DNA of 64,000 bases from an uncultured Candidatus Bathyarchaeia archaeon (GTDB taxonomy: Archaea > Thermoproteota > CALKCG01 > B24): contig CAYWZZ010000002.1 in assembly GCA_964463005.1 (NCBI GenBank), positions 27,939 to 91,938 of the forward strand. The letters are read 5' to 3'. The notes below the pieces were generated by a model. That model worked only from the letters and a program-made list of their open reading frames with translations, was not told the DNA's origin and ran no database searches. Positions 41,476-49,588 of this stretch are shown piece by piece (the first letter of the stretch is position 1; the number at the start of each line of letters is the position of its first letter). A program made the position numbers and the translations under genes.

Positions 41476-43311
41476 TTAATCCTCTAAGCTGATTATTAAG
41501 TCTAAGTTTAACCGTTTAATCGTCTCAGACTTCGGTATACCATTTTCATCCCATCCCCGTAGGATGTAGTACTCGTTTAACATTTTATCTAATTCGACTA
41601 TTGAGCCTTTAGCAGGCCCCTCTGGCATAGCTTCTTCTAAAAGCCTACGTGGTAAACAGTCGTCTCTCCGTCTAACGCCTTCCCTTACATTGAACAGACG
41701 CGTTAAATTGTATACTCTCTCACCAATAGTTCTCAACGTATCTGCTTCATTAAGCGGGAGGCCAGTGGCCGTAGCTAACATTTCACCTATTTCTCTAAAC
41801 GATAAGGCAAATGATGCGAAGAAGCATATGCCTGTAGAATCTATTAGTGCCTTTTCATTCTGGTAATCTACCACAAGCTTCGCTTTCCCATCCGCTTTAA
41901 CCGGGTCTACAGCTCCACCATATGCTAAAAGTTCTTTGTCAGCCGTATATGCTCTCAGATGACATGCACCTCTATCTGAAGTAGCGTATCCTAAACCCAT
42001 ACCTTTAGAGGCTCTAGGCTCATAACCTGGCATTTCTAAACCTTTAACATGCATAGCTATATCTTCGCAACCATATTTAACGCTCAGCTTCTTAACACCA
42101 AGTCTAAGTTCTTTTCCAACACCATCGCCCTTGCATATCTTCTCCACAAGCCTCAATAAAGCTTCACTACTACCCCACTTAGCATTGACTCCATCTAGGT
42201 CTTCGCTCTTGAGAATCTTTCTCTCGTAAAGCTCCATGACGAAGCTGACTATAACACCCGTACTTATCGTATCTACGCCATATGCATCGCATAGCCAGTT
42301 AGCGTAAACTATCGCCTCTTTATCTGAAACCCCACATAATGGTCCCAACGCCCATAACGTCTCATAATCCGGACCGTCAACTACATGAGCTAGTGTAAAT
42401 GTCAGTTTACTGCAAGCTATCGGACATCCGAAACAAGCTCTATCCTTCTTCCAAAGTTCCCTACGCCACTCATAACCGGATATCTTCCAAGTATCTTGGA
42501 AGACCCCTGTTTTAAAGTTTTTAGTCGGTAGTGCACCAGCTTCGTTTATAGTCTCGATTATGTTGACTGTACCATAGGTGGGTAAACTTCTGGCTGTAAC
42601 CTCATGCATTCTAATTCTCCTATGAGCTCTCCAACATGCTTTCTTAAAGCCATCTGGATCGTAAACGGTTATAGGCTTCTCCCCCCTAACAGCTATACTC
42701 TTGAGATTTTTAGAGCCCATGACTGCTCCGGCTCCCCCTCTCCCAGCGCAACGTTGATCTGTGAATATTCCAGCTATCGGTACTAATTCTTCACCAGCTG
42801 GACCTATTGTTAAAACTCTAAATTCTTCACCAAGCCTATCTTTCACCTTCTTTTCAGCCTCCATGGTTTTTAAACCCATCAGCCAGTTAGCATCTTCAAC
42901 GTACACGTCCCCATCATCTATAACGATCATCGATAACTGGCTAGCTTTTCCAGTAATCATAACGGCGTCAAAACCAGCTTTCTTAAGCTCAACTCCGAAG
43001 AAGCCTCCACAGTTAGAGTCTAAGAATAGACCAGTATGAGGGCTCTTGGTTACGATACTGAAGCGGCAACTTGAAGGAGCCAATGTTCCAGTTAAAGGTC
43101 CAGTTGCCAGTATTAGAGGATTTTCAGGACTTAGAGGATCTACACCTCTACGTGTAGAATTGTACAGTAGGAGAGACCCCAACCCCTTCCCTCCTAGAAC
43201 CATTAAGGCATCTTTTTGAGATAACACAGCCTTTTCCACTCTTCCAGACGAAAGATCTAGTTTAGCTATAGCTCCTGCATACCCTCTACCTGAAAGGCTC
43301 AAATTCACCAA
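41476..43311 (-). CDS. aor: tungsten-type aldehyde:ferredoxin oxidoreductase (AOR family), intact
   Basis: 611 aa. GRGGAGAVMGSKNLK, EYETLWALG and C-terminal YYILRGWDENG motifs. Confidence 0.85.
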   Translation of the reverse strand: MVNLSLSGRGYAGAIAKLDLSSGRVEKAVLSQKDALMVLGGKGLGSLLLYNSTRRGVDPLSPENPLILATGPLTGTLAPSSCRFSIVTKSPHTGLFLDSNCGGFFGVELKKAGFDAVMITGKASQLSMIVIDDGDVYVEDANWLMGLKTMEAEKKVKDRLGEEFRVLTIGPAGEELVPIAGIFTDQRCAGRGGAGAVMGSKNLKSIAVRGEKPITVYDPDGFKKACWRAHRRIRMHEVTARSLPTYGTVNIIETINEAGALPTKNFKTGVFQDTWKISGYEWRRELWKKDRACFGCPIACSKLTFTLAHVVDGPDYETLWALGPLCGVSDKEAIVYANWLCDAYGVDTISTGVIVSFVMELYERKILKSEDLDGVNAKWGSSEALLRLVEKICKGDGVGKELRLGVKKLSVKYGCEDIAMHVKGLEMPGYEPRASKGMGLGYATSDRGACHLRAYTADKELLAYGGAVDPVKADGKAKLVVDYQNEKALIDSTGICFFASFALSFREIGEMLATATGLPLNEADTLRTIGERVYNLTRLFNVREGVRRRDDCLPRRLLEEAMPEGPAKGSIVELDKMLNEYYILRGWDENGIPKSETIKRLNLDLIISLED

Positions 43312-44549
43312 CCCCCTTCTACTCTTAAAGCATTTCTAGAACACCATTTCACACACTCTGGCAGACCATCACAGAGGTCGCATAGGAGAAGTCTTCCATT
43401 TATAAGCTTTAAGACTTTTACTGGACAAGAGTCAACGCAAACGCCGCAACCTTGACATAGCTCTGGTGAAACTTCCACAGCTCCTGTTCTACTATTCACT
43501 CTAAGCGCCCCATTTGGACAGGCGTTCACACAAGAATAACATAGATTACAAACATATGGGATGAAGGCTTTTCCATCTTCAGAAACTTTAACCCTCAATC
43601 TTGCTAATGAAGAGTTGAAAACCTTCTCATGAGAGAAACTGCATGCGAGCTCGCATATACGGCAACCACTACATCTCTCAACGTCGACTAGTATCCTAAC
43701 AGGAGGTTTGATTCTCTCTCTAAGAATGTCTGTTACTGTTTCCTTTCCATGAATTATCCTCCTCATAAGTCTAACGGCTTCATCTGGATTCGGATCTTGA
43801 ACTACATTCCTACCGAAGACCACCCCAACTGCACCAACATCTAAAACTTCAGATATAACCTCTAGAGAGTCCCTTATACTTAACGCCTTATAACCTCCTA
43901 AAACTAAAACTGGAACACCTGAGGATGCTTCAACAACCTCCTTAAACGAATATGGATCACCTGTATACGGAACCTTCAACGCATCAGCTCCAAGCTCTAC
44001 GGCCTTTTCAACAGCCTTCCTAACCATGTCGACGTAATTCGCCTTAGTAACCCTAGGACCCATGGGGAGCGGCTCTATGATCAAAGGCATGCTCCAAGTT
44101 TTACATTCGCTTGAAAACTCTTCAACCATCGCTATGTGATCATTCTCCCCCTCAAAACCTAGGAAAAGATATGTTACCACACCTGAAGCCCCAACCTTAA
44201 CAGCCTCCTTAACCGTAGCAACCTTGTTGAACTGTATGCTTCTAGCTGGTAACGTATACGTTTTATCTCTAAACGCATTGGTCCAGTCTACTCTGACGAG
44301 CATAGCTGGAGCGCCTTTACCTGTGAATAAGTGACTGAGCTTTCTAGCCTGACCTAGGCTTACTAGAATAGCGTCTGGTCCACCTGCTATGACCTTTCTA
44401 AGTGTCGCTTCTAAGTCTACAACACCCTTTATAGGTCCAAGCATTAAACCGTGATCCGCCGCTACGACTAAGCTTCTACCATCAGATGGATCTATAATCT
44501 TACTTAATCTGACAAGTTTGCCAAAGCTCAATTCAATCGAGCCTCCCAT
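43305..44549 (-). CDS. class-I (archaeal FbaB/DhnA-type) aldolase fused to C-terminal poly-[4Fe-4S] ferredoxin domain
   Basis: ELGADALKVPYTGD...PVLVLGGYK...VVFGRNVVQ matches the Thermoproteus-type class-I FBP aldolase, including the Schiff-base Lys. The C-terminal 140 aa carry 3-4 CxxCxxCxxxC(P) motifs. Confidence 0.7.
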   Translation of the reverse strand: MGGSIELSFGKLVRLSKIIDPSDGRSLVVAADHGLMLGPIKGVVDLEATLRKVIAGGPDAILVSLGQARKLSHLFTGKGAPAMLVRVDWTNAFRDKTYTLPARSIQFNKVATVKEAVKVGASGVVTYLFLGFEGENDHIAMVEEFSSECKTWSMPLIIEPLPMGPRVTKANYVDMVRKAVEKAVELGADALKVPYTGDPYSFKEVVEASSGVPVLVLGGYKALSIRDSLEVISEVLDVGAVGVVFGRNVVQDPNPDEAVRLMRRIIHGKETVTDILRERIKPPVRILVDVERCSGCRICELACSFSHEKVFNSSLARLRVKVSEDGKAFIPYVCNLCYSCVNACPNGALRVNSRTGAVEVSPELCQGCGVCVDSCPVKVLKLINGRLLLCDLCDGLPECVKWCSRNALRVEGGW

Positions 44550-45297
44550 GAACTATCGACAACACATCTGTCAGGAGATCGACTGGATTTCCGATGTTAA
44601 GAGATCTGCCTAAGACTATACCGTTTAATCCAATGTCAAGAACGCTTAGTAAAATATCTGAAAGGTTCTGTTGCATCTTTTCAATTACGAGCTTGGAAGA
44701 TGGATCCATGAGAAGCGTATAGGTCTTAACAGACTCTATGACGTTTTTCAAATCCTCGATGTTCTTAAGAGGCGGTACAGCTACTATGGAGGCACCTACT
44801 TCAACAGCCATTCTAGCAGCTAAGCCAACACTTTCACTATAATTTTCACTACTTACCCTTTCACCGAAGGGCACGGCTTCAACTATGAACGGCAATTCAT
44901 AATCGTAGCAAACGTCGGAAAGTATTGCTATAAGCTTCACGCTGTTAGAATCTATACGTTCATCTTCATGGCCTATCGTAAGGGTGGAAATGACCGCTGA
45001 AAAATCCATTCGTAAAGCTTCAACAACAAGTTCTTCAATGTTAGCCTTAGGGTTTGAAGACTGTAAAACTTCAGAGTTGACTCTCAAAATGTAGGATGGT
45101 GATCTTCTACCTAGAAACACATGCTTATTTTTAATTATAGACTCCGCATCCGCTACAATTAAACCGTCAAGTCTCTTAATGATACCAGTATCTGTTGCAA
45201 TAATCTTCTGGAAGGCAAAGTCATCACTACAATCGACTAAAACACACCTTAAATCCGTTGGATTCAAGATCCGCCCTATACGGATAGTAAACGTCAT
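44533..45297 (-). CDS. class-I aldolase-like paralog lacking the Schiff-base lysine (pseudo-enzyme or regulatory subunit?)
   Basis: Colinear with the aldolase domain, but the catalytic-Lys position reads ASIVAVPP instead of ADALKVPY. It overlaps the fusion gene by 17 nt. Confidence 0.55.
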   Translation of the reverse strand: MTFTIRIGRILNPTDLRCVLVDCSDDFAFQKIIATDTGIIKRLDGLIVADAESIIKNKHVFLGRRSPSYILRVNSEVLQSSNPKANIEELVVEALRMDFSAVISTLTIGHEDERIDSNSVKLIAILSDVCYDYELPFIVEAVPFGERVSSENYSESVGLAARMAVEVGASIVAVPPLKNIEDLKNVIESVKTYTLLMDPSSKLVIEKMQQNLSDILLSVLDIGLNGIVLGRSLNIGNPVDLLTDVLSIVHGRLD

Positions 45298-45339
45298 ATT
45301 CTAGTTTAATAATTTTGAGTTGGTCTATTTAAAGCTCTT

Positions 45340-46641
45340 TCATGACAATCCCTCAATAATAACGCCGCCGACGATTGTAGCTTCAACTTTAACGTTGAAG
45401 CACCCCGGCGCACCTTCAACCCTCAGCACTGTCAGATCCGCCTTCATTCCTTTTTCAATAACTCCTCTATCTGTCAACCCCTCCAATTTCGCTTGATTAG
45501 ATGATGTCAACATTGAGACTAATCTAATGGACTCGTCTAGGCTTCTAGAATCGACATCTATCATAAAACCAGAGTGGTTAACTGTGAACATGTTTAAGAG
45601 GTTTTGAAAAGCCCTATCCATAGTTAGCAAACTTGAGCATAGCGTATTTGGAGGCGCTGGCTTCACCTCTTCACCATCGAAGTACCCCTTTACCACTAGA
45701 ACGTCTTCAACGGGATGTTTGCAACATATCGTTGAAAATATTCTAAATTCCCCGACTGGAACTTCCCTTTTAATCGGAAATGCAGAGTCCGTTATAGCTA
45801 TGACTTCATGAGGTCTATTTTTACGAATTCTCCTCTCAATTATATCCGAGACGTAGCGGAAGTCTACATGATACCCGTCTACGATTATCTCCACGTATAA
45901 TGGTAGAGTTAACGCCGCTTCATACGTACCTCCACCGTCGAAGGGCTTGAAAGACTGGCCCATAGCTCCATTGGTTATGTGGACTATAAACTTTAACCCC
46001 AAGTTGAAGGCCTCTTCCACCTTTTTAGCTGAGGCTTTTGTATGTCCACATCCAACTATAACACCTTTAGATACTGCATACTTTATAAGATCAACCCCAA
46101 AATCTGGGACTATATTGACAAACTTAACAACACCAGTCTCCAACATGGAATCAAGCATGTGTTTCGCTCTGGGAGAATTAGGAGGAATTATGTAATCTTT
46201 GGGTTGAGCACCTGCACATTCAACGTTTATGAAAGTACCCTCTACATAAGCACCTTCAAATCTAGCACCTTCAACACCGTTCTCGTAAGATTCCATGTAG
46301 GTTTTACACGTTTTCAAATACGTTAAGAGGTCTTCAAACGGCATGGCTACGGTGGCTAAATGAAAAGCCGTAACCCCTTGACCTGCTAAAGCCTTCGAAA
46401 CCCTACTTATTCTATCAGGGTTTGTCAGAAATTTAGTTAAACCGATGATATCGTGCGTATGTTGTTCTCTAAAACCTGGAACAACATAACAGCCGTCGCA
46501 ATCAAAAACCTCCCCTTTAGATCTAACAGAGACACCTATATTACTGATATAGCCGTTCTCAACGACCAAGTTCCCCTTTAAAACACCTCTAGGTGTAACT
46601 ATCAAACCGTTTTTAAGAGTTAGACTCATGGCGATTATCAT
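45340..46641 (-). CDS. NagA-family amidohydrolase (N-acetylglucosamine-6-phosphate deacetylase-like)
   Basis: PGFREQHTHD, GCGHT, ITDS and SSLTMD motifs align with NagA. Confidence 0.65.
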   Translation of the reverse strand: MIIAMSLTLKNGLIVTPRGVLKGNLVVENGYISNIGVSVRSKGEVFDCDGCYVVPGFREQHTHDIIGLTKFLTNPDRISRVSKALAGQGVTAFHLATVAMPFEDLLTYLKTCKTYMESYENGVEGARFEGAYVEGTFINVECAGAQPKDYIIPPNSPRAKHMLDSMLETGVVKFVNIVPDFGVDLIKYAVSKGVIVGCGHTKASAKKVEEAFNLGLKFIVHITNGAMGQSFKPFDGGGTYEAALTLPLYVEIIVDGYHVDFRYVSDIIERRIRKNRPHEVIAITDSAFPIKREVPVGEFRIFSTICCKHPVEDVLVVKGYFDGEEVKPAPPNTLCSSLLTMDRAFQNLLNMFTVNHSGFMIDVDSRSLDESIRLVSMLTSSNQAKLEGLTDRGVIEKGMKADLTVLRVEGAPGCFNVKVEATIVGGVIIEGLS

Positions 46642-46703: not shown

Positions 46704-47711
46704 CTAATATCTTCTCTCAACTATGAACTCCGTCAAAGCCTCTAGAAGGTCTCTAGCTTCTGTTTTAGGAAGCAATGTTAAAGCCTTTTTCGCCTTTGAA
46801 GAGTATTGATGGGCGAGTTTTTTGACGTACTCCACAGCTCCCGAAGACTCTATGAGCTCTATGGCTTCTAATATATGCTCCTTAGAAGCAGACCTATTAC
46901 CTAAAATCTCCATAAGTCTGCGTCTTCCACGGTCGTCAAGTCTATTTAAGGCTTCGAGTACAACTATGGTCTTCTTCCCCTCCCTTATATCACTTCCAAC
47001 AGGTTTACCCAGCTCTTCTTCAACGCCAGAAACCCCGAGTATGTCATCCACCATTTGAAAAGCGATACCAGAGTAAAATCCGTAGTTTTTCAAAGCTTCG
47101 ATCTTATTTGGAGACGCTTCAGCTATAAGCCCACCTATCTCTGCAGAAACCATATACAACCTAGCCGTCTTAAGGCCGATCATCTTCATGTAATCTTCCA
47201 CAGTCACGCTACGTACTGGCTTTTCAGCTAAAGCCATATCCATGGTTTGTCCTGCGCATATATCTATTAGAGCCTCAGAGAATCTTTCAATGACGCTCAC
47301 TATGACAGATTCTTTAACGCCCTCGGACTTCAGGTTTTTAGATAAAACTTTGAAGACTAATGCAAAAAGCATATCGCCTGATATTATGGCTTGAGGAGTA
47401 CCCCAGAGAACATGAACTGTTGGAACACCCCTCCTAGTTTCATCACGGTCAATGATATCATCGTGGATCAACGTAAACGTATGTAGAATTTCAACCGCCA
47501 CAGCAACGGGATACGGTTTGAAGCCAGTTCCACCACACGCTTCATAAGACTTCACAAGCATAAATGGTCTAAGCCGCTTACCGCCAGCTTTTAAAAGGTG
47601 GTAGCTGGATTCACGTAGAACATTGGGAATATCAAGCTCTTTCATAATTCTAGATAATTCGCTGGAAATGTTCTCCGAAATTTTAGATATTTCACCCATG
47701 AGATTTACCAT
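46704..47711 (-). CDS. idsA: geranylgeranyl diphosphate synthase (trans-prenyltransferase)
   Basis: FARM motif LIHDDIIDRD and SARM motif DDILG. Confidence 0.85.
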   Translation of the reverse strand: MVNLMGEISKISENISSELSRIMKELDIPNVLRESSYHLLKAGGKRLRPFMLVKSYEACGGTGFKPYPVAVAVEILHTFTLIHDDIIDRDETRRGVPTVHVLWGTPQAIISGDMLFALVFKVLSKNLKSEGVKESVIVSVIERFSEALIDICAGQTMDMALAEKPVRSVTVEDYMKMIGLKTARLYMVSAEIGGLIAEASPNKIEALKNYGFYSGIAFQMVDDILGVSGVEEELGKPVGSDIREGKKTIVVLEALNRLDDRGRRRLMEILGNRSASKEHILEAIELIESSGAVEYVKKLAHQYSSKAKKALTLLPKTEARDLLEALTEFIVERRY

Positions 47712-47714
47712 TAC

Positions 47715-48791
47715 TCACACCCTAACCTTCAACTTTCTAAATGTGGCCCACTCTCTGACAAAACCAGTTAGAATATACGGTTTCCTTTTAAGATCTTCTA
47801 TTCTCTCAGAGCCTGTTAAAACCATAGCCAACTTTAATTCTCCACATATCTTTTTTAAGAGTTTTAATACGCTTTCCCAACTTTCCATAGCAGGTTTGAG
47901 TAGAGGCAGTGCTAAACCAGCTAAATCCGCTCCTAAAACTAGAGCTTTAGCAACATCTAAACCGCTTCGAATACCTCCAGATGCCACTAATGGAATGTCT
48001 ACAGCAGTCCTCACCTCAAGTATGGAAATGGCCGTGGGTATCCCCCAATCCCAGAAAGTCTTAGAGAGCTCAGCCCTCTCCCAATCACCAGCTTCCATAC
48101 TTCTATAGTATTCTACGCCAGCCCAGCTTGTTCCACCCGCTCCAGACGCTTCAAGCGCATCGACTCCTGCGGATGCTAAAAGTTCAGCGTCTTCTCTACA
48201 TATGCCGGATCCAACTTCCTTAACTATTATTGGAAATTCAACTCTCGACTTCAACTCCCTGAGCTTATTTAGAACGCCTCTGAATATACGCGTCCCATCG
48301 TGTTGGAGGAATTCATGGAGGGGGTTTAAATGGATGGTTAAAGCATCTGCTTCAACCATTTCGACGAGCTTCTTCAATTCACCATATGGATAGGTTAAAA
48401 GCTCTTGAAAACCTATGTTAGCTGAAATGAATATGTGCTTCGCATTCTCCCTTGCAATTTTAAAGGAGTACGTGCAACTGGGGTTTTCAAGACACGCTCT
48501 ACCACTTCCAAGACACATACCTATACCAAGTTCCTCAGCGGCTTTAGCTAGATTTGCGTTTATCTTAGCCGCTTCAGCCATTCCACCAGTCATAGCGGAA
48601 ATGATCATCGGAGCTTTAAACCTAAACCCTAGAAACTCAACAGAGAGGTCTAGTTTTTCAAACTCAACCTCTGGGAGGCATCTGTGGATTAAATGTACGT
48701 TTTCAAAACCCGTTGTGATGTTTTTGACTTCAACCATCTTTTCAGAGCATATCCGTACATGGTCGCTCTTCCTTTTACTAGTAGAATCCAT
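47715..48791 (-). CDS. fni: isopentenyl-diphosphate isomerase type 2 (FMN-dependent)
   Basis: Overall IDI-2 similarity (…MTGG...). Operon context. Confidence 0.8.
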   Translation of the reverse strand: MDSTSKRKSDHVRICSEKMVEVKNITTGFENVHLIHRCLPEVEFEKLDLSVEFLGFRFKAPMIISAMTGGMAEAAKINANLAKAAEELGIGMCLGSGRACLENPSCTYSFKIARENAKHIFISANIGFQELLTYPYGELKKLVEMVEADALTIHLNPLHEFLQHDGTRIFRGVLNKLRELKSRVEFPIIVKEVGSGICREDAELLASAGVDALEASGAGGTSWAGVEYYRSMEAGDWERAELSKTFWDWGIPTAISILEVRTAVDIPLVASGGIRSGLDVAKALVLGADLAGLALPLLKPAMESWESVLKLLKKICGELKLAMVLTGSERIEDLKRKPYILTGFVREWATFRKLKVRV

Positions 48792-49588
48792 TATCGAACA
48801 CCTTTTATCAACGTGCCTCTAACCTTTTCACCCTTAAGAGCCTTAAAAAGCCTACCGGGTTTCAATCCATTGATTATATGGACGTCTATACCCATACTCG
48901 CTATCTTACAGGCCTGTTCGAGTTTAAAGCGCATTCCTCCAGTAGCATTAGACGATTTGAAACTTAATCTATTTAAGAGAGAATTTACTTCAGCGACGGA
49001 GGTCTCATCTATAAGTTCAACATTGGAATTGTACTTAGGATCTGCTGGGTACAACCCATCAACGTCAATCGTGAATATGACTTTTAAAGGTTTAATTTTA
49101 CGTGAGAGTTCGAACATCAATAGATCGCCAGATACTATCGAAAAACCTTTATCGAGATCAAATGCAACATCTCCAAAAGTTACAGGCGTTAAATTCATGT
49201 TTAAAGCGTTTATAAAAGGCTCATAGAATATTTTCTTTAAAATACCGGATGTTAAGATTGCAAAGGCTAGAGGGGGGAACGGGACAGCCTTCAATCCCTT
49301 ACGCTCTAACGCTTTTAGAACTTCTTCGTTTAGTTTAAGCATAGCTCTATGCGTGGCAATGAAGCCTCCAATCTGCTCTTCCAAACCCATAAATCTCTCA
49401 TTAAGCTTATACTTTAAAGCTAAGGGATGGCCAAAAGACCCCCCTCCATGCACTATTACGATCTTCTTCAAGTTGGAAGCTGAAACTTCAGCCGCAAGCC
49501 TATTTAGGGCTCTACGGTTGACACTCATAGGCTTATTTTTAATCGTTATAACGCTACCGCCGAGTTTAATTATAGCCTCAGCTCTCAT
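48791..49588 (-). CDS. ipk: isopentenyl phosphate kinase
   Basis: Amino-acid-kinase fold (KLGGSVIT..., HGGGSFGH). Confidence 0.8.
   Translation of the reverse strand: MRAEAIIKLGGSVITIKNKPMSVNRRALNRLAAEVSASNLKKIVIVHGGGSFGHPLALKYKLNERFMGLEEQIGGFIATHRAMLKLNEEVLKALERKGLKAVPFPPLAFAILTSGILKKIFYEPFINALNMNLTPVTFGDVAFDLDKGFSIVSGDLLMFELSRKIKPLKVIFTIDVDGLYPADPKYNSNVELIDETSVAEVNSLLNRLSFKSSNATGGMRFKLEQACKIASMGIDVHIINGLKPGRLFKALKGEKVRGTLIKGVR

What the first reader, a model, noticed from the sequence alone, without database searches (positions are those of the whole stretch)
44533..45297. Aldolase-fold paralog missing the catalytic Schiff-base lysine
The paralog aligns colinearly with the fused aldolase, but ELGADALKVPYTGD becomes EVGASIVAVPPLKN. 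It overlaps the fusion gene by 17 nt, which suggests translational coupling and a hetero-oligomeric pseudo-enzyme or scaffold subunit.
Basis: seen in the sequence. Interest (0 to 1): 0.55.

Follow-up and report, generated by a model that had tools for sequence, protein, structure and literature searches.

The report
Dead aldolase partner of tungsten oxidoreductase
This gene encodes a conserved aldolase look-alike that has lost the lysine and phosphate-binding residues needed for catalysis; it is always encoded beside a working aldolase fused to the iron-sulfur subunit of a tungsten aldehyde oxidoreductase, which points to a three-protein sugar-splitting and aldehyde-oxidising module in archaea that I could not find described.

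Summary
ORF 44533-45297 (-) is a 254-aa DeoC/DhnA-fold paralog of the neighbouring aldolase (25% identity, E 8e-23, colinear). It has Ala173 where MJ0400 has Lys184, T. tenax FBPA has Lys177 and the neighbour has Lys192. It has also lost the β1 Asp and the GG phosphate loop, and the GRN Arg is not conserved.

It is not a decaying gene. dN/dS is 0.19-0.27, and 14 Bathyarchaeia orthologues all carry Ala or Val at that column.

The neighbour is an aldolase fused to a WorS-type domain with four [4Fe-4S] clusters, followed by a PfAOR-like tungsten oxidoreductase. In 54 of 54 assessable loci, from several archaeal phyla, a Lys-less paralog flanks this fusion-AOR pair. All 59 non-redundant paralogs fall on one side of a single tree split and co-diverge with the fusion (r = 0.80).

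Best reading: an ancient non-catalytic subunit of a hetero-oligomeric aldolase/W-oxidoreductase complex. No physical association was tested.

The 17-nt overlap is probably a start-codon artefact. The conserved start is a TTG 1 nt after the stop, preceded by GGGAGG, so translational coupling remains plausible.

I found no description of this module, including in a 2026 classification of tungsten oxidoreductases.

The parts
44533..45297 (-). Lys-less DeoC/DhnA-fold paralog (254 aa), the finding
   Evidence: ORF list. Pfam DeoC above cut-off. AF2 model is a TIM barrel, pLDDT 79.7, pTM 0.82. Best Foldseek hits are MJ0400 ADH synthase, T. tenax FBPA and LsrF.
44779..44781 (-). Codon of Ala173, the column of the Schiff-base lysine on strand β6
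   Evidence: phmmer alignments to 2qjg (Lys184) and 1w8s/1ojx (Lys177). Motif translation. The column is A or V in all 14 orthologues and A30/I16/V11/T1/S1 in 59 non-redundant paralogs.
43305..44549 (-). DhnA-type aldolase domain fused to a WorS-type polyferredoxin domain (414 aa from ATG 44549; probably 408 aa from TTG 44531)
   Evidence: Pfam DeoC 3e-34 plus Fer4 families. PDB hits MJ0400 2e-36, WOR5 small subunit 6x6u_B 1e-26 and AorA 8c0z_C 2e-22. D32, H33, G218, G219 and R247 are invariant and K192 nearly invariant in 24 diverse fusions.
43974..43976 (-). Codon of Lys192, the retained Schiff-base lysine of the fusion
   Evidence: Alignment to MJ0400 and motif translation.
43305..43712 (-). 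C-terminal domain of the fusion with four [4Fe-4S] clusters (about residues 280-414)
   Evidence: 16 invariant Cys in four CxxCxxCxxxC-like groups. Best PDB matches are Fe-S small subunits of W-oxidoreductases.
41476..43311 (-). AOR-family tungsten oxidoreductase large subunit (611 aa); its start abuts or overlaps the fusion stop
   Evidence: Pfam AFOR_N and AFOR_C. P. furiosus AOR 1aor E 8e-152. Junction sequence.
44529..44547 (-). Gene junction: GGGAGG (44547-44542) inside the last codons of the paralog, TGA stop (44535-44533), conserved TTG start (44531-44529)
   Evidence: Sequence. The same arrangement occurs in L001 and L014, where the ATG is replaced by CAC.
45326..45333 (-). TATA-box-like TTTAAATA preceded by AAAGAG, about 32 nt upstream of the paralog ATG; candidate promoter of the three-gene operon
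   Evidence: Sequence. The element is conserved upstream of the paralog in all Bathyarchaeia loci, including L005 and L013, which lack the NagA-like gene. Promoter function is inferred.
45340..46641 (-). NagA-like amidohydrolase (433 aa), a lineage-specific upstream neighbour and possibly a pathway partner
   Evidence: TIGR00221 nagA 2.6e-34, below its cut-off. PDB NagA hits. Present in L001 and L004 but not L005.

Best explanation
The ORF encodes a non-catalytic aldolase paralog (a pseudo-aldolase). It arose once, early, by duplication of a DhnA-type class I aldolase and lost the Schiff-base lysine, the β1 aspartate and the phosphate-binding loop. It is made together with a Lys-bearing aldolase from a tightly packed operon, by termination-reinitiation at a stop/start junction. 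I infer that it assembles with that aldolase into a mixed oligomer; DhnA-type aldolases are ring-shaped decamers. In this window and most relatives, the catalytic partner carries a C-terminal WorS-type domain with four [4Fe-4S] clusters, which should dock the PfAOR-like tungsten subunit encoded next. The module would then cleave a ketose phosphate at the aldolase site, oxidise the released aldehyde at the tungsten site and pass electrons through the Fe-S chain to ferredoxin. The dead subunit would provide assembly, stability or spacing, for example by filling oligomer positions so that fewer bulky WorS-WorL arms crowd the ring. Shown here: loss of catalytic residues, purifying selection, strict co-encoding, single origin and co-divergence. 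Inferred: hetero-oligomer formation, stoichiometry, substrate and channelling.
For: Catalytic residues. Ala173 aligns with Lys184 of MJ0400 and Lys177 of T. tenax FBPA, and lies in β6 of the model. Lys184 on β6 and Asp33 are the MJ0400 catalytic residues (PMC4162585). Across 59 non-redundant paralogs the Lys column is A, I, V, T or S and never K. The β1 Asp is S, D or T. The GG loop is D, P, A or E, or deleted. The GRN Arg is variable. No paralog-specific invariant polar residue appears.

Selection. dN/dS is 0.19-0.27 for the paralog at unsaturated dS, against 0.08-0.10 for the fusion and the AOR. Mean column identity is 71% among 14 orthologues.

Pairing. 54 of 54 assessable fusion loci carry the paralog, directly upstream or directly after the AOR. 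Three further family members, picked from the exhaustive profile search rather than through the fusion, also sit immediately upstream of a Lys-bearing aldolase. Unfused paralog-plus-aldolase pairs also exist.

Evolution. One neighbour-joining split separates all 59 paralogs from all 88 other aldolase domains. Paralog and fusion distances correlate at r = 0.80 over 44 loci.

Gene junctions. They range from a 14-nt overlap to a few nt of spacer, and GGAGG is embedded in the paralog's last codons.

Oligomer precedent. PDB entries of relatives hold 10 or 20 chains per entry, consistent with decamers.

Tungsten enzyme link. The Fd domain matches the small subunits of WOR5 and AorAB, and the large subunit matches PfAOR.
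Against: The paralog keeps some pocket-lining residues shared with the active partner (Arg72, Glu140, Gly145-x-Arg147), and most paralogs outside Bathyarchaeia keep the RxDWxN loop, so ligand binding or another chemistry is not excluded. GatZ and KbaZ, long annotated as aldolase chaperones, turned out to be C4 epimerases (PMC11907403). In the L011, L012 and L029 sub-clade the fusion itself has Glu instead of Lys, so the simple picture of one live plus one dead subunit does not hold everywhere. The neighbour-joining tree has no bootstrap support, and fast-evolving sequences can cluster artefactually.
Confidence: 0.6

Rival explanations
1. The paralog is an enzyme in its own right. It uses non-Schiff-base chemistry (for example epimerisation or isomerisation of a sugar phosphate, or another step feeding the aldolase) and is co-encoded because it acts in the same pathway, not because it is a subunit.
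For: [quoted passage not shown] The paralog retains a TIM barrel with conserved charged residues at the C-terminal ends of strands (Asp22, Arg72, Glu140, Arg147, Asp198 within Bathyarchaeia). Neighbourhoods are sugar-catabolic: AraA-like isomerase, FGGY or PfkB kinase, SIS domain, glycosidases.
Against: Across the whole family no polar residue specific to the paralogs is invariant. Asp22 is present in only 36 of 59, and Glu140, Arg72 and Arg147 are shared with the active partner. The phosphate-binding GG loop is replaced by Asp, Glu or Pro, or deleted, and the GRN Arg is lost, which argues against binding a sugar phosphate in the ancestral way. dN/dS is 2-3 times higher than for the two catalytic partners. 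The RxDWxN loop is deleted in the window's clade.
Confidence: 0.2
2. The paralog is a ligand-sensing or regulatory subunit. Its degenerate active site binds a metabolite and modulates the aldolase or AOR allosterically.
For: Same pairing and conservation evidence as the main reading. Part of the pocket is retained.
Against: Pocket residues vary widely between clades, so no common ligand is evident. There is no precedent in DhnA-type aldolases that I know of (own knowledge).
Confidence: 0.12
3. The ORF is a decaying duplicate (pseudogene in progress) or a chance ORF without function.
For: Loss of all canonical catalytic residues.
Against: The reading frame is intact in dozens of lineages. dN/dS is 0.15-0.27. 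62 columns are invariant among 14 orthologues. The gene keeps its position from Bathyarchaeia to Asgard archaea.
Confidence: 0.02

Closest known systems
M. jannaschii ADH synthase MJ0400 (PDB 2qjg/2qjh/2qji) and T. tenax class IA fructose-bisphosphate aldolase (1ojx, 1w8s); DhnA-type class I aldolases, Pfam PF01791
   Same: Same TIM-barrel fold: Foldseek E 6e-14, TM about 0.75, and phmmer E 1.5e-9. The acidic loop after β4, the G-x-R loop after β5 and the E-x-G-A helix before β6 are shared.
   Different: The Schiff-base Lys (Ala173), the β1 Asp (Ser24) and the GG phosphate loop (Asp198-Pro199) are all missing. Scores are far below every NCBIfam equivalog cut-off, for example 58.9 vs 241 bits. 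It is therefore not a functional member.
GatZ/KbaZ, accessory ('chaperone') partners of the class II tagatose-bisphosphate aldolases GatY/KbaY
   Same: An aldolase-like protein without aldolase activity, encoded beside the catalytic aldolase in sugar or amino-sugar operons. Overexpression of gatZ is reported to raise tagatose-bisphosphate aldolase activity (PMC11907403). The unfused pairs found here sit with SIS, PfkB and (in this window) NagA-like genes, much like the Aga/Gat clusters.
   Different: An unrelated aldolase class: metal-dependent class II rather than Schiff-base class I. GatZ and KbaZ are now known to be C4 epimerases. They have no link to a tungsten oxidoreductase.
Class II tungsten oxidoreductases (WorL+WorS), e.g. 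P. furiosus WOR5/ASOR (6x6u) and C. bescii GOR; also AorAB of A. aromaticum (8c0z)
   Same: A large AFOR subunit plus a small subunit with four [4Fe-4S] clusters (classes as defined in PMC13328260).
   Different: Here WorS is the C-terminal domain of an aldolase, and a third protein, aldolase-like but Lys-less, is always co-encoded. The 2026 classification text contains neither 'aldolase' nor 'DeoC'.
Catalytically dead paralog activators such as the trypanosomatid AdoMetDC prozyme
   Same: A dead paralog that partners with the active enzyme (PMC6221367 abstract).
   Different: Different fold, chemistry and domain of life. For the present protein heteromer formation is only inferred.

Membership tests
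DhnA-type class I aldolase (archaeal FBPA class IA / ADH synthase / LsrF; PF01791) | (α/β)8 DeoC/LacD-type barrel | tested here: met
   Pfam DeoC 31.4 bits vs cut-off 23.8. AF2 model has eight β/α units, pTM 0.82. Foldseek top hits are 2qji, 1ojx and 4p2v.
DhnA-type class I aldolase (archaeal FBPA class IA / ADH synthase / LsrF; PF01791) | Schiff-base lysine on strand β6 (MJ0400 Lys184, T. tenax Lys177) | tested here: not met
   Ala173 occupies the column. It is never Lys in 59 non-redundant family members. Lys178 is not conserved, and Lys191 lies at the N-terminal end of β7.
DhnA-type class I aldolase (archaeal FBPA class IA / ADH synthase / LsrF; PF01791) | β1 aspartate acting as proton acceptor (MJ0400 Asp33; role from PMC4162585) | tested here: not met
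   Fusion Asp32 aligns with MJ0400 Asp33. The paralog has Ser24 there; family-wide the column is S30/D15/T10.
DhnA-type class I aldolase (archaeal FBPA class IA / ADH synthase / LsrF; PF01791) | Phosphate-binding GG loop after β7 and the G-R-N/Q arginine after β8 | tested here: not met
   GG is replaced by Asp198-Pro199; family-wide it is D, P, A or E, or deleted. The window protein has an Arg at the GRN position, but most orthologues have Ser and the family column is variable.
DhnA-type class I aldolase (archaeal FBPA class IA / ADH synthase / LsrF; PF01791) | Score above a curated NCBIfam equivalog or subfamily cut-off | tested here: not met
   Best is NF005556 at 58.9 bits vs 241; TIGR01949 scores 53.4 vs 299.
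Non-catalytic paralogous partner subunit (pseudoenzyme) | Homologous to a catalytically competent partner but lacking its catalytic residues, with the loss conserved across the family | tested here: met
Non-catalytic paralogous partner subunit (pseudoenzyme) | Maintained by purifying selection | tested here: met
   dN/dS is 0.19-0.27 at dS 0.36-0.43, compared with 0.08-0.10 for the fusion and the AOR.
Non-catalytic paralogous partner subunit (pseudoenzyme) | Obligate co-occurrence and co-evolution with the active paralog | tested here: met
   54 of 54 assessable loci. 3 of 3 members picked from the exhaustive profile search, not via the fusion. Mirror-tree r = 0.80.
Non-catalytic paralogous partner subunit (pseudoenzyme) | Physical hetero-oligomer with the active paralog, and an effect on its activity or stability | not testable with these tools
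This needs co-purification or cryo-EM.
Class II tungsten oxidoreductase (WorL+WorS), for the operon as a whole | WorL with AFOR_N and AFOR_C domains, plus a partner with four [4Fe-4S] clusters | tested here: met
   The WorS module is fused to an aldolase domain, which the published class definition does not cover.
Class II tungsten oxidoreductase (WorL+WorS), for the operon as a whole | Tungstopterin content, aldehyde oxidation and ferredoxin as electron acceptor | not testable with these tools
   Biochemical properties.

The most novel reading that the evidence does not exclude
The three genes encode a new architectural class of tungsten oxidoreductase. A mixed ring of live and dead DhnA-type aldolase subunits would serve as the core on which WorS-WorL modules are mounted, so that the aldehyde released by C-C cleavage of a ketose phosphate passes directly to the tungsten site and its electrons to ferredoxin. 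This would be an ancient aldolase-oxidoreductase metabolon shared by Bathyarchaeia, other Thermoproteota and Asgard archaea, with the pseudo-aldolase indispensable for its assembly.
Probability: 0.3. Interest if true: 0.75.

Novelty: new variant of a known kind. Interest (0 to 1): 0.6.

Why it matters
Dead paralogs that partner with live enzymes are known. I found none reported for Schiff-base (class I, DhnA-type) aldolases, and none tied to a tungsten enzyme.

Most clades of tungsten oxidoreductases have no assigned physiological role (PMC13328260). Here the fusion itself names the likely upstream reaction, aldol cleavage. That gives a concrete, testable hypothesis for one clade: coupled sugar-phosphate cleavage and ferredoxin-dependent aldehyde oxidation in uncultured, sediment- and hot-spring-dwelling archaea, including relatives of the eukaryotic ancestor.

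Automatic annotation is also affected. These proteins are labelled 'fructose-bisphosphate aldolase' or 'ADH synthase', which inflates inferred glycolytic and aromatic-amino-acid capacity in MAG-based metabolic reconstructions.

Tried and rejected
1. An alternative lysine. Lys178 (PPLK) lies five residues after the column, but it is Arg, Gly or Asn in orthologues. Lys191 is invariant only in the Bathyarchaeia clade and sits at the N-terminal end of β7 in the model. Both rejected.

2. A new catalytic motif. GxEDExxDS and ENY looked paralog-specific in the narrow alignment, but equivalent acidic-loop and N-Y/F motifs occur in the fusions, and the acidic loop also in MJ0400. Rejected.

3. A pseudogene. 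Rejected on dN/dS and conservation.

4. The 17-nt overlap as evidence of coupling. The ATG is not conserved, so it is replaced by the conserved TGA-n-TTG junction with GGAGG.

5. The NagA-like gene as part of the core. It is absent upstream in L005 and L013, and a conserved TATA-like element lies between it and the paralog. I treat it as a lineage-specific neighbour.

6. A sulfoglycolysis link through WOR5/ASOR. The large subunit is far closer to PfAOR (E 8e-152) than to WOR5 (E 6e-65). Not pursued.

7. A predicted heterodimer from a linker-joined paired alignment (A5).

8. Literature. Eight full-text searches and five papers read found no description of an aldolase-WorS fusion or of a Lys-less DhnA paralog. 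This covers only the held open-access library.
Full report
**1. What is in the window**

Four genes lie head-to-tail on the minus strand.
- 45340-46641: a NagA-like amidohydrolase of 433 aa.
- 44533-45297: the 254-aa ORF of the finding.
- 43305-44549: a 414-aa protein with an N-terminal DeoC/DhnA aldolase domain and C-terminal 4Fe-4S domains.
- 41476-43311: a 611-aa aldehyde:ferredoxin oxidoreductase family protein with AFOR_N and AFOR_C domains.

The 254-aa protein is identical to a database protein, and its orthologues that carry a source name come from Bathyarchaeia MAGs.

**2. Checking the observation**

BLASTP of the ORF against the fusion gives a colinear alignment, residues 5-252 vs 13-269, with 25% identity and E 8e-23. 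Pfam DeoC is above its gathering score.

phmmer against PDB sequences aligns Ala173 with Lys184 of M. jannaschii MJ0400 and Lys177 of T. tenax FBPA. Lys184 on strand β6 is the Schiff-base residue of MJ0400, and Asp33 is its proton acceptor (PMC4162585).

An AlphaFold2 model built on 14 orthologues (pLDDT 79.7, pTM 0.82) is an eight-stranded β/α barrel with Ala173 inside strand β6, residues 171-174. Its best structural matches are MJ0400, T. tenax FBPA and LsrF. The sequence observation is correct, and the alignment is not ambiguous at the critical column.

**3. The 17-nt overlap**

The overlap exists only if the fusion starts at ATG 44549. In the 78%- and 86%-identical orthologues L001 and L014, that ATG is CAC.

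What is conserved is ...CAY GGG AGG nnn nnn TGA n TTG AGC TTT GGC AA... This is a GGGAGG Shine-Dalgarno-like element inside the paralog's last codons, then the stop, one spacer base and a TTG start. The TTG start gives 408 aa, a length found among close orthologues.

In other lineages the junction ranges from a 14-nt overlap to a few nt of spacer. The fusion-AOR junction is equally tight. Translational coupling is therefore plausible, but not because of a 17-nt overlap.

**4. Is the gene alive?**

Fourteen orthologues (47-100% identity) have 62 invariant columns, and the lysine column is Ala or Val in all of them. Nei-Gojobori dN/dS against close orthologues is 0.19-0.27 at dS 0.36-0.43. The fusion and the AOR give 0.08-0.10 in the same genome pairs. 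The gene is under purifying selection, but two to three times more relaxed than its catalytic neighbours.

**5. What else is lost**

I compared 59 non-redundant Lys-less paralogs with 52 fusion aldolase domains on one HMM alignment.

| Position in the fusion | State in the paralogs |
|---|---|
| Lys192 | A30 / I16 / V11 / T1 / S1 |
| Asp32 | S30 / D15 / T10 |
| His33 | variable |
| Gly218-Gly219 | D, P, A or E, or deleted |
| Arg247 | variable |
| Y195-T-G-D198 | variable |

Retained in both groups are fold determinants, an Arg after β3 (Arg72), a Glu on β5 (Glu140), the G-x-R loop after β5 and the E-x-G-A helix. Most paralogs outside Bathyarchaeia also keep an RxDWxNxxR loop, which the window's clade has deleted. 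No polar residue is invariant in the paralogs and absent from the fusions. Motifs that looked new in the narrow alignment (EDE..DS, ENY) are also present in the fusions, and the acidic loop is present in MJ0400.

**6. The partner is a tungsten-enzyme subunit**

The fusion's C-terminal 130 residues carry 16 invariant cysteines, enough for four [4Fe-4S] clusters. They match best the small Fe-S subunits of W-oxidoreductases: WOR5 6x6u_B at 1e-26 and AorA 8c0z_C at 2e-22. The downstream large subunit matches P. furiosus AOR at E 8e-152.

In the 2026 classification of tungsten oxidoreductases, WorL plus a four-cluster WorS defines Class II. That paper's text mentions neither an aldolase nor DeoC (PMC13328260).

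**7. Distribution and linkage**

The fusion occurs in about 100 clusters at 90% identity. Those that carry a source name are attributed to Bathyarchaeia, Brockarchaeota, Thermoprotei/Thermoproteota, 'Thaumarchaeota', Loki- and Sigynarchaeota, and one KSB1 bacterium.

I collected 92 loci from genomes and metagenomes and classified every DeoC-like ORF by its residue at the lysine column.
- Of 59 loci with a fusion (the window included), 5 lie too close to a contig end to assess.
- All other 54 carry a Lys-less paralog.
- 51 have it directly upstream. L042 is counted here by inspection, because the script missed it owing to an over-long ORF segment.
- 3 have it directly after the AOR (L010, L033, L060; L010 is Sigynarchaeota).
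- The AOR follows the fusion in 51 loci; in the other 8 no AOR was seen, probably because the contig ends.

Some loci are duplicates reached by two routes; 44 non-redundant pairs remain.

Three more paralog-family members came from an exhaustive profile search of 1.8 billion proteins, not through the fusion. Each sits immediately upstream of a Lys-bearing aldolase.

A neighbour-joining tree has one split with all 59 paralogs on one side and all 88 other aldolase domains on the other. Pairwise distances of paralogs and fusions correlate at r = 0.80. The profile search also ranks Lys-less proteins ahead of fusions. This suggests one ancient duplication and loss followed by co-inheritance. The caveat is that the tree has no support values and fast-evolving sequences can attract each other.

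**8. Operon limits and context**

A BRE/TATA-like AAAGAG-(C/T)TTTAA(A/G) element lies about 32 nt upstream of the paralog ATG. It is found in all Bathyarchaeia loci, including those without the NagA-like gene. The core unit is therefore paralog-fusion-AOR; promoter function is inferred.

Neighbours elsewhere are sugar-catabolic.
- L011: an ABC transporter, an AraA-like isomerase and an FGGY kinase.
- L012: GH42, GH38 and a URO-D-like gene.
- L007: a xylose-isomerase-like barrel, an MFS transporter and a GFO/IDH oxidoreductase.

Unfused paralog-plus-aldolase pairs also occur. In L068 they sit with SIS, PfkB and DegT genes, and in L061 with DUF4432, URO-D-like and GH38 genes. This resembles the logic of the E. 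coli Aga/Gat clusters, with their KbaY/KbaZ and GatY/GatZ pairs.

**9. Mechanism proposed**

Shown:
- a conserved, selected, Lys-less aldolase-fold protein;
- strictly co-encoded, co-diverging and probably co-translated with a Lys-bearing aldolase;
- that aldolase is usually fused to the Fe-S subunit of a PfAOR-like tungsten enzyme.

Inferred:
- the two aldolase-fold proteins form a mixed oligomer. Relatives crystallise with 10 or 20 chains per entry, consistent with decamers;
- the dead subunit provides assembly, stability or spacing;
- the complex cleaves a ketose phosphate and oxidises the aldehyde product at tungsten, passing electrons through four clusters to ferredoxin.

The substrate is unknown. 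The fusion keeps the C1-phosphate site (GG, GRN) but has Leu where the T. tenax and MJ0400 enzymes have Tyr146/Tyr153, so it is neither a typical FBPA nor a typical ADH synthase.

**10. Rivals**

- An independent non-Schiff-base enzyme. The GatZ/KbaZ precedent is a real warning: these 'chaperones' are C4 epimerases (PMC11907403). However, the family lacks any conserved new catalytic residue and has dismantled its phosphate site.
- A regulatory ligand-binding subunit. This is possible, but the pocket varies between clades.
- A pseudogene. This is excluded.

**11. An unexplained complication**

In one sub-clade (P0086-P0090; L011, L012, L029) the fusion itself has Glu at the lysine column. Several positions change with it, and no compensating Lys appears. 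Its small paralog is also Lys-less. Either these complexes use different chemistry or the aldolase fold has another role there.

**12. Novelty**

Eight full-text searches and five papers read found no description of the fusion or of the Lys-less paralog. The search covers only the open-access library, so absence is not proof. I rate this a new variant of a known kind: a pseudoenzyme partner, here of a class I aldolase, embedded in an undescribed architecture of tungsten oxidoreductase.

Noticed in passing
L011:6001-7236, L012:6001-7245, L029:3231-4481 (proteins P0086-P0090): A sub-clade of the aldolase-WorS fusion has Glu instead of the Schiff-base Lys. P160V, A116L, L217A and E159C/T change with it, and no compensating Lys was found. 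The adjacent small paralog is Lys-less too, so neither DeoC-fold protein in these loci has the nucleophile.
   Followed up: partly
L068:4459-6099, L065:2856-4496, L066:2655-4294, L061:3701-5328: Pairs of a Lys-less paralog and a Lys-bearing aldolase also occur without the ferredoxin fusion or an AOR. They sit in operons with a SIS-domain protein, a PfkB kinase and a DegT aminotransferase (L068), or with DUF4432, a URO-D-like gene and a GH38 mannosidase (L061). This resembles the Aga/Gat (KbaY/KbaZ) gene logic.
   Followed up: partly
window 44529-44547 (-); same junction in L001 and L014: The paralog's conserved C-terminal His-Gly-Arg/Gly codons (CAY GGG AGG) double as a GGAGG ribosome-binding site for a TTG start 1 nt after the stop. 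One stretch of DNA is therefore constrained both as coding sequence and as a translation signal.
   Followed up: yes
window 45326-45340 (-); L001, L002, L003, L004, L005, L013, L014 upstream of the paralog: A conserved AAAGAG plus TTTAAATA-like element lies about 32 nt upstream of the paralog start codon. It suggests a dedicated archaeal promoter and a very short leader for the three-gene operon.
   Followed up: partly
L010:817-4814, L033:4483-8478, L060:3-3744: In Asgard-type loci the gene order is fusion, AOR, paralog, instead of paralog, fusion, AOR. The paralog there scores no Pfam hit in the precomputed annotation.
   Followed up: partly
window 45340-46641 (-): The NagA-like amidohydrolase scores well below the NagA equivalog cut-off (118.8 vs 225.65 bits). 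It is present next to the operon only in the closer Bathyarchaeia relatives. Its substrate and its link to the aldolase module are unknown.
   Followed up: partly
window 46704-49588 (-): Three ORFs directly upstream look, by eye only, like isoprenoid lipid precursor genes: a polyprenyl (GGPP) synthase, a type 2 IPP isomerase and an isopentenyl phosphate kinase-like protein. The same 335/36x/265-aa ORF pattern precedes the operon in L001 and L004.
   Followed up: no
L007:381-2492 and L094:911-1237: A second AOR-family gene with an adjacent ThiS-like (WorX-type) gene lies near the module in L007, and a ThiS-like gene lies near it in L094. URO-D-like genes recur next to the module in L007, L012 and L061.
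   Followed up: no
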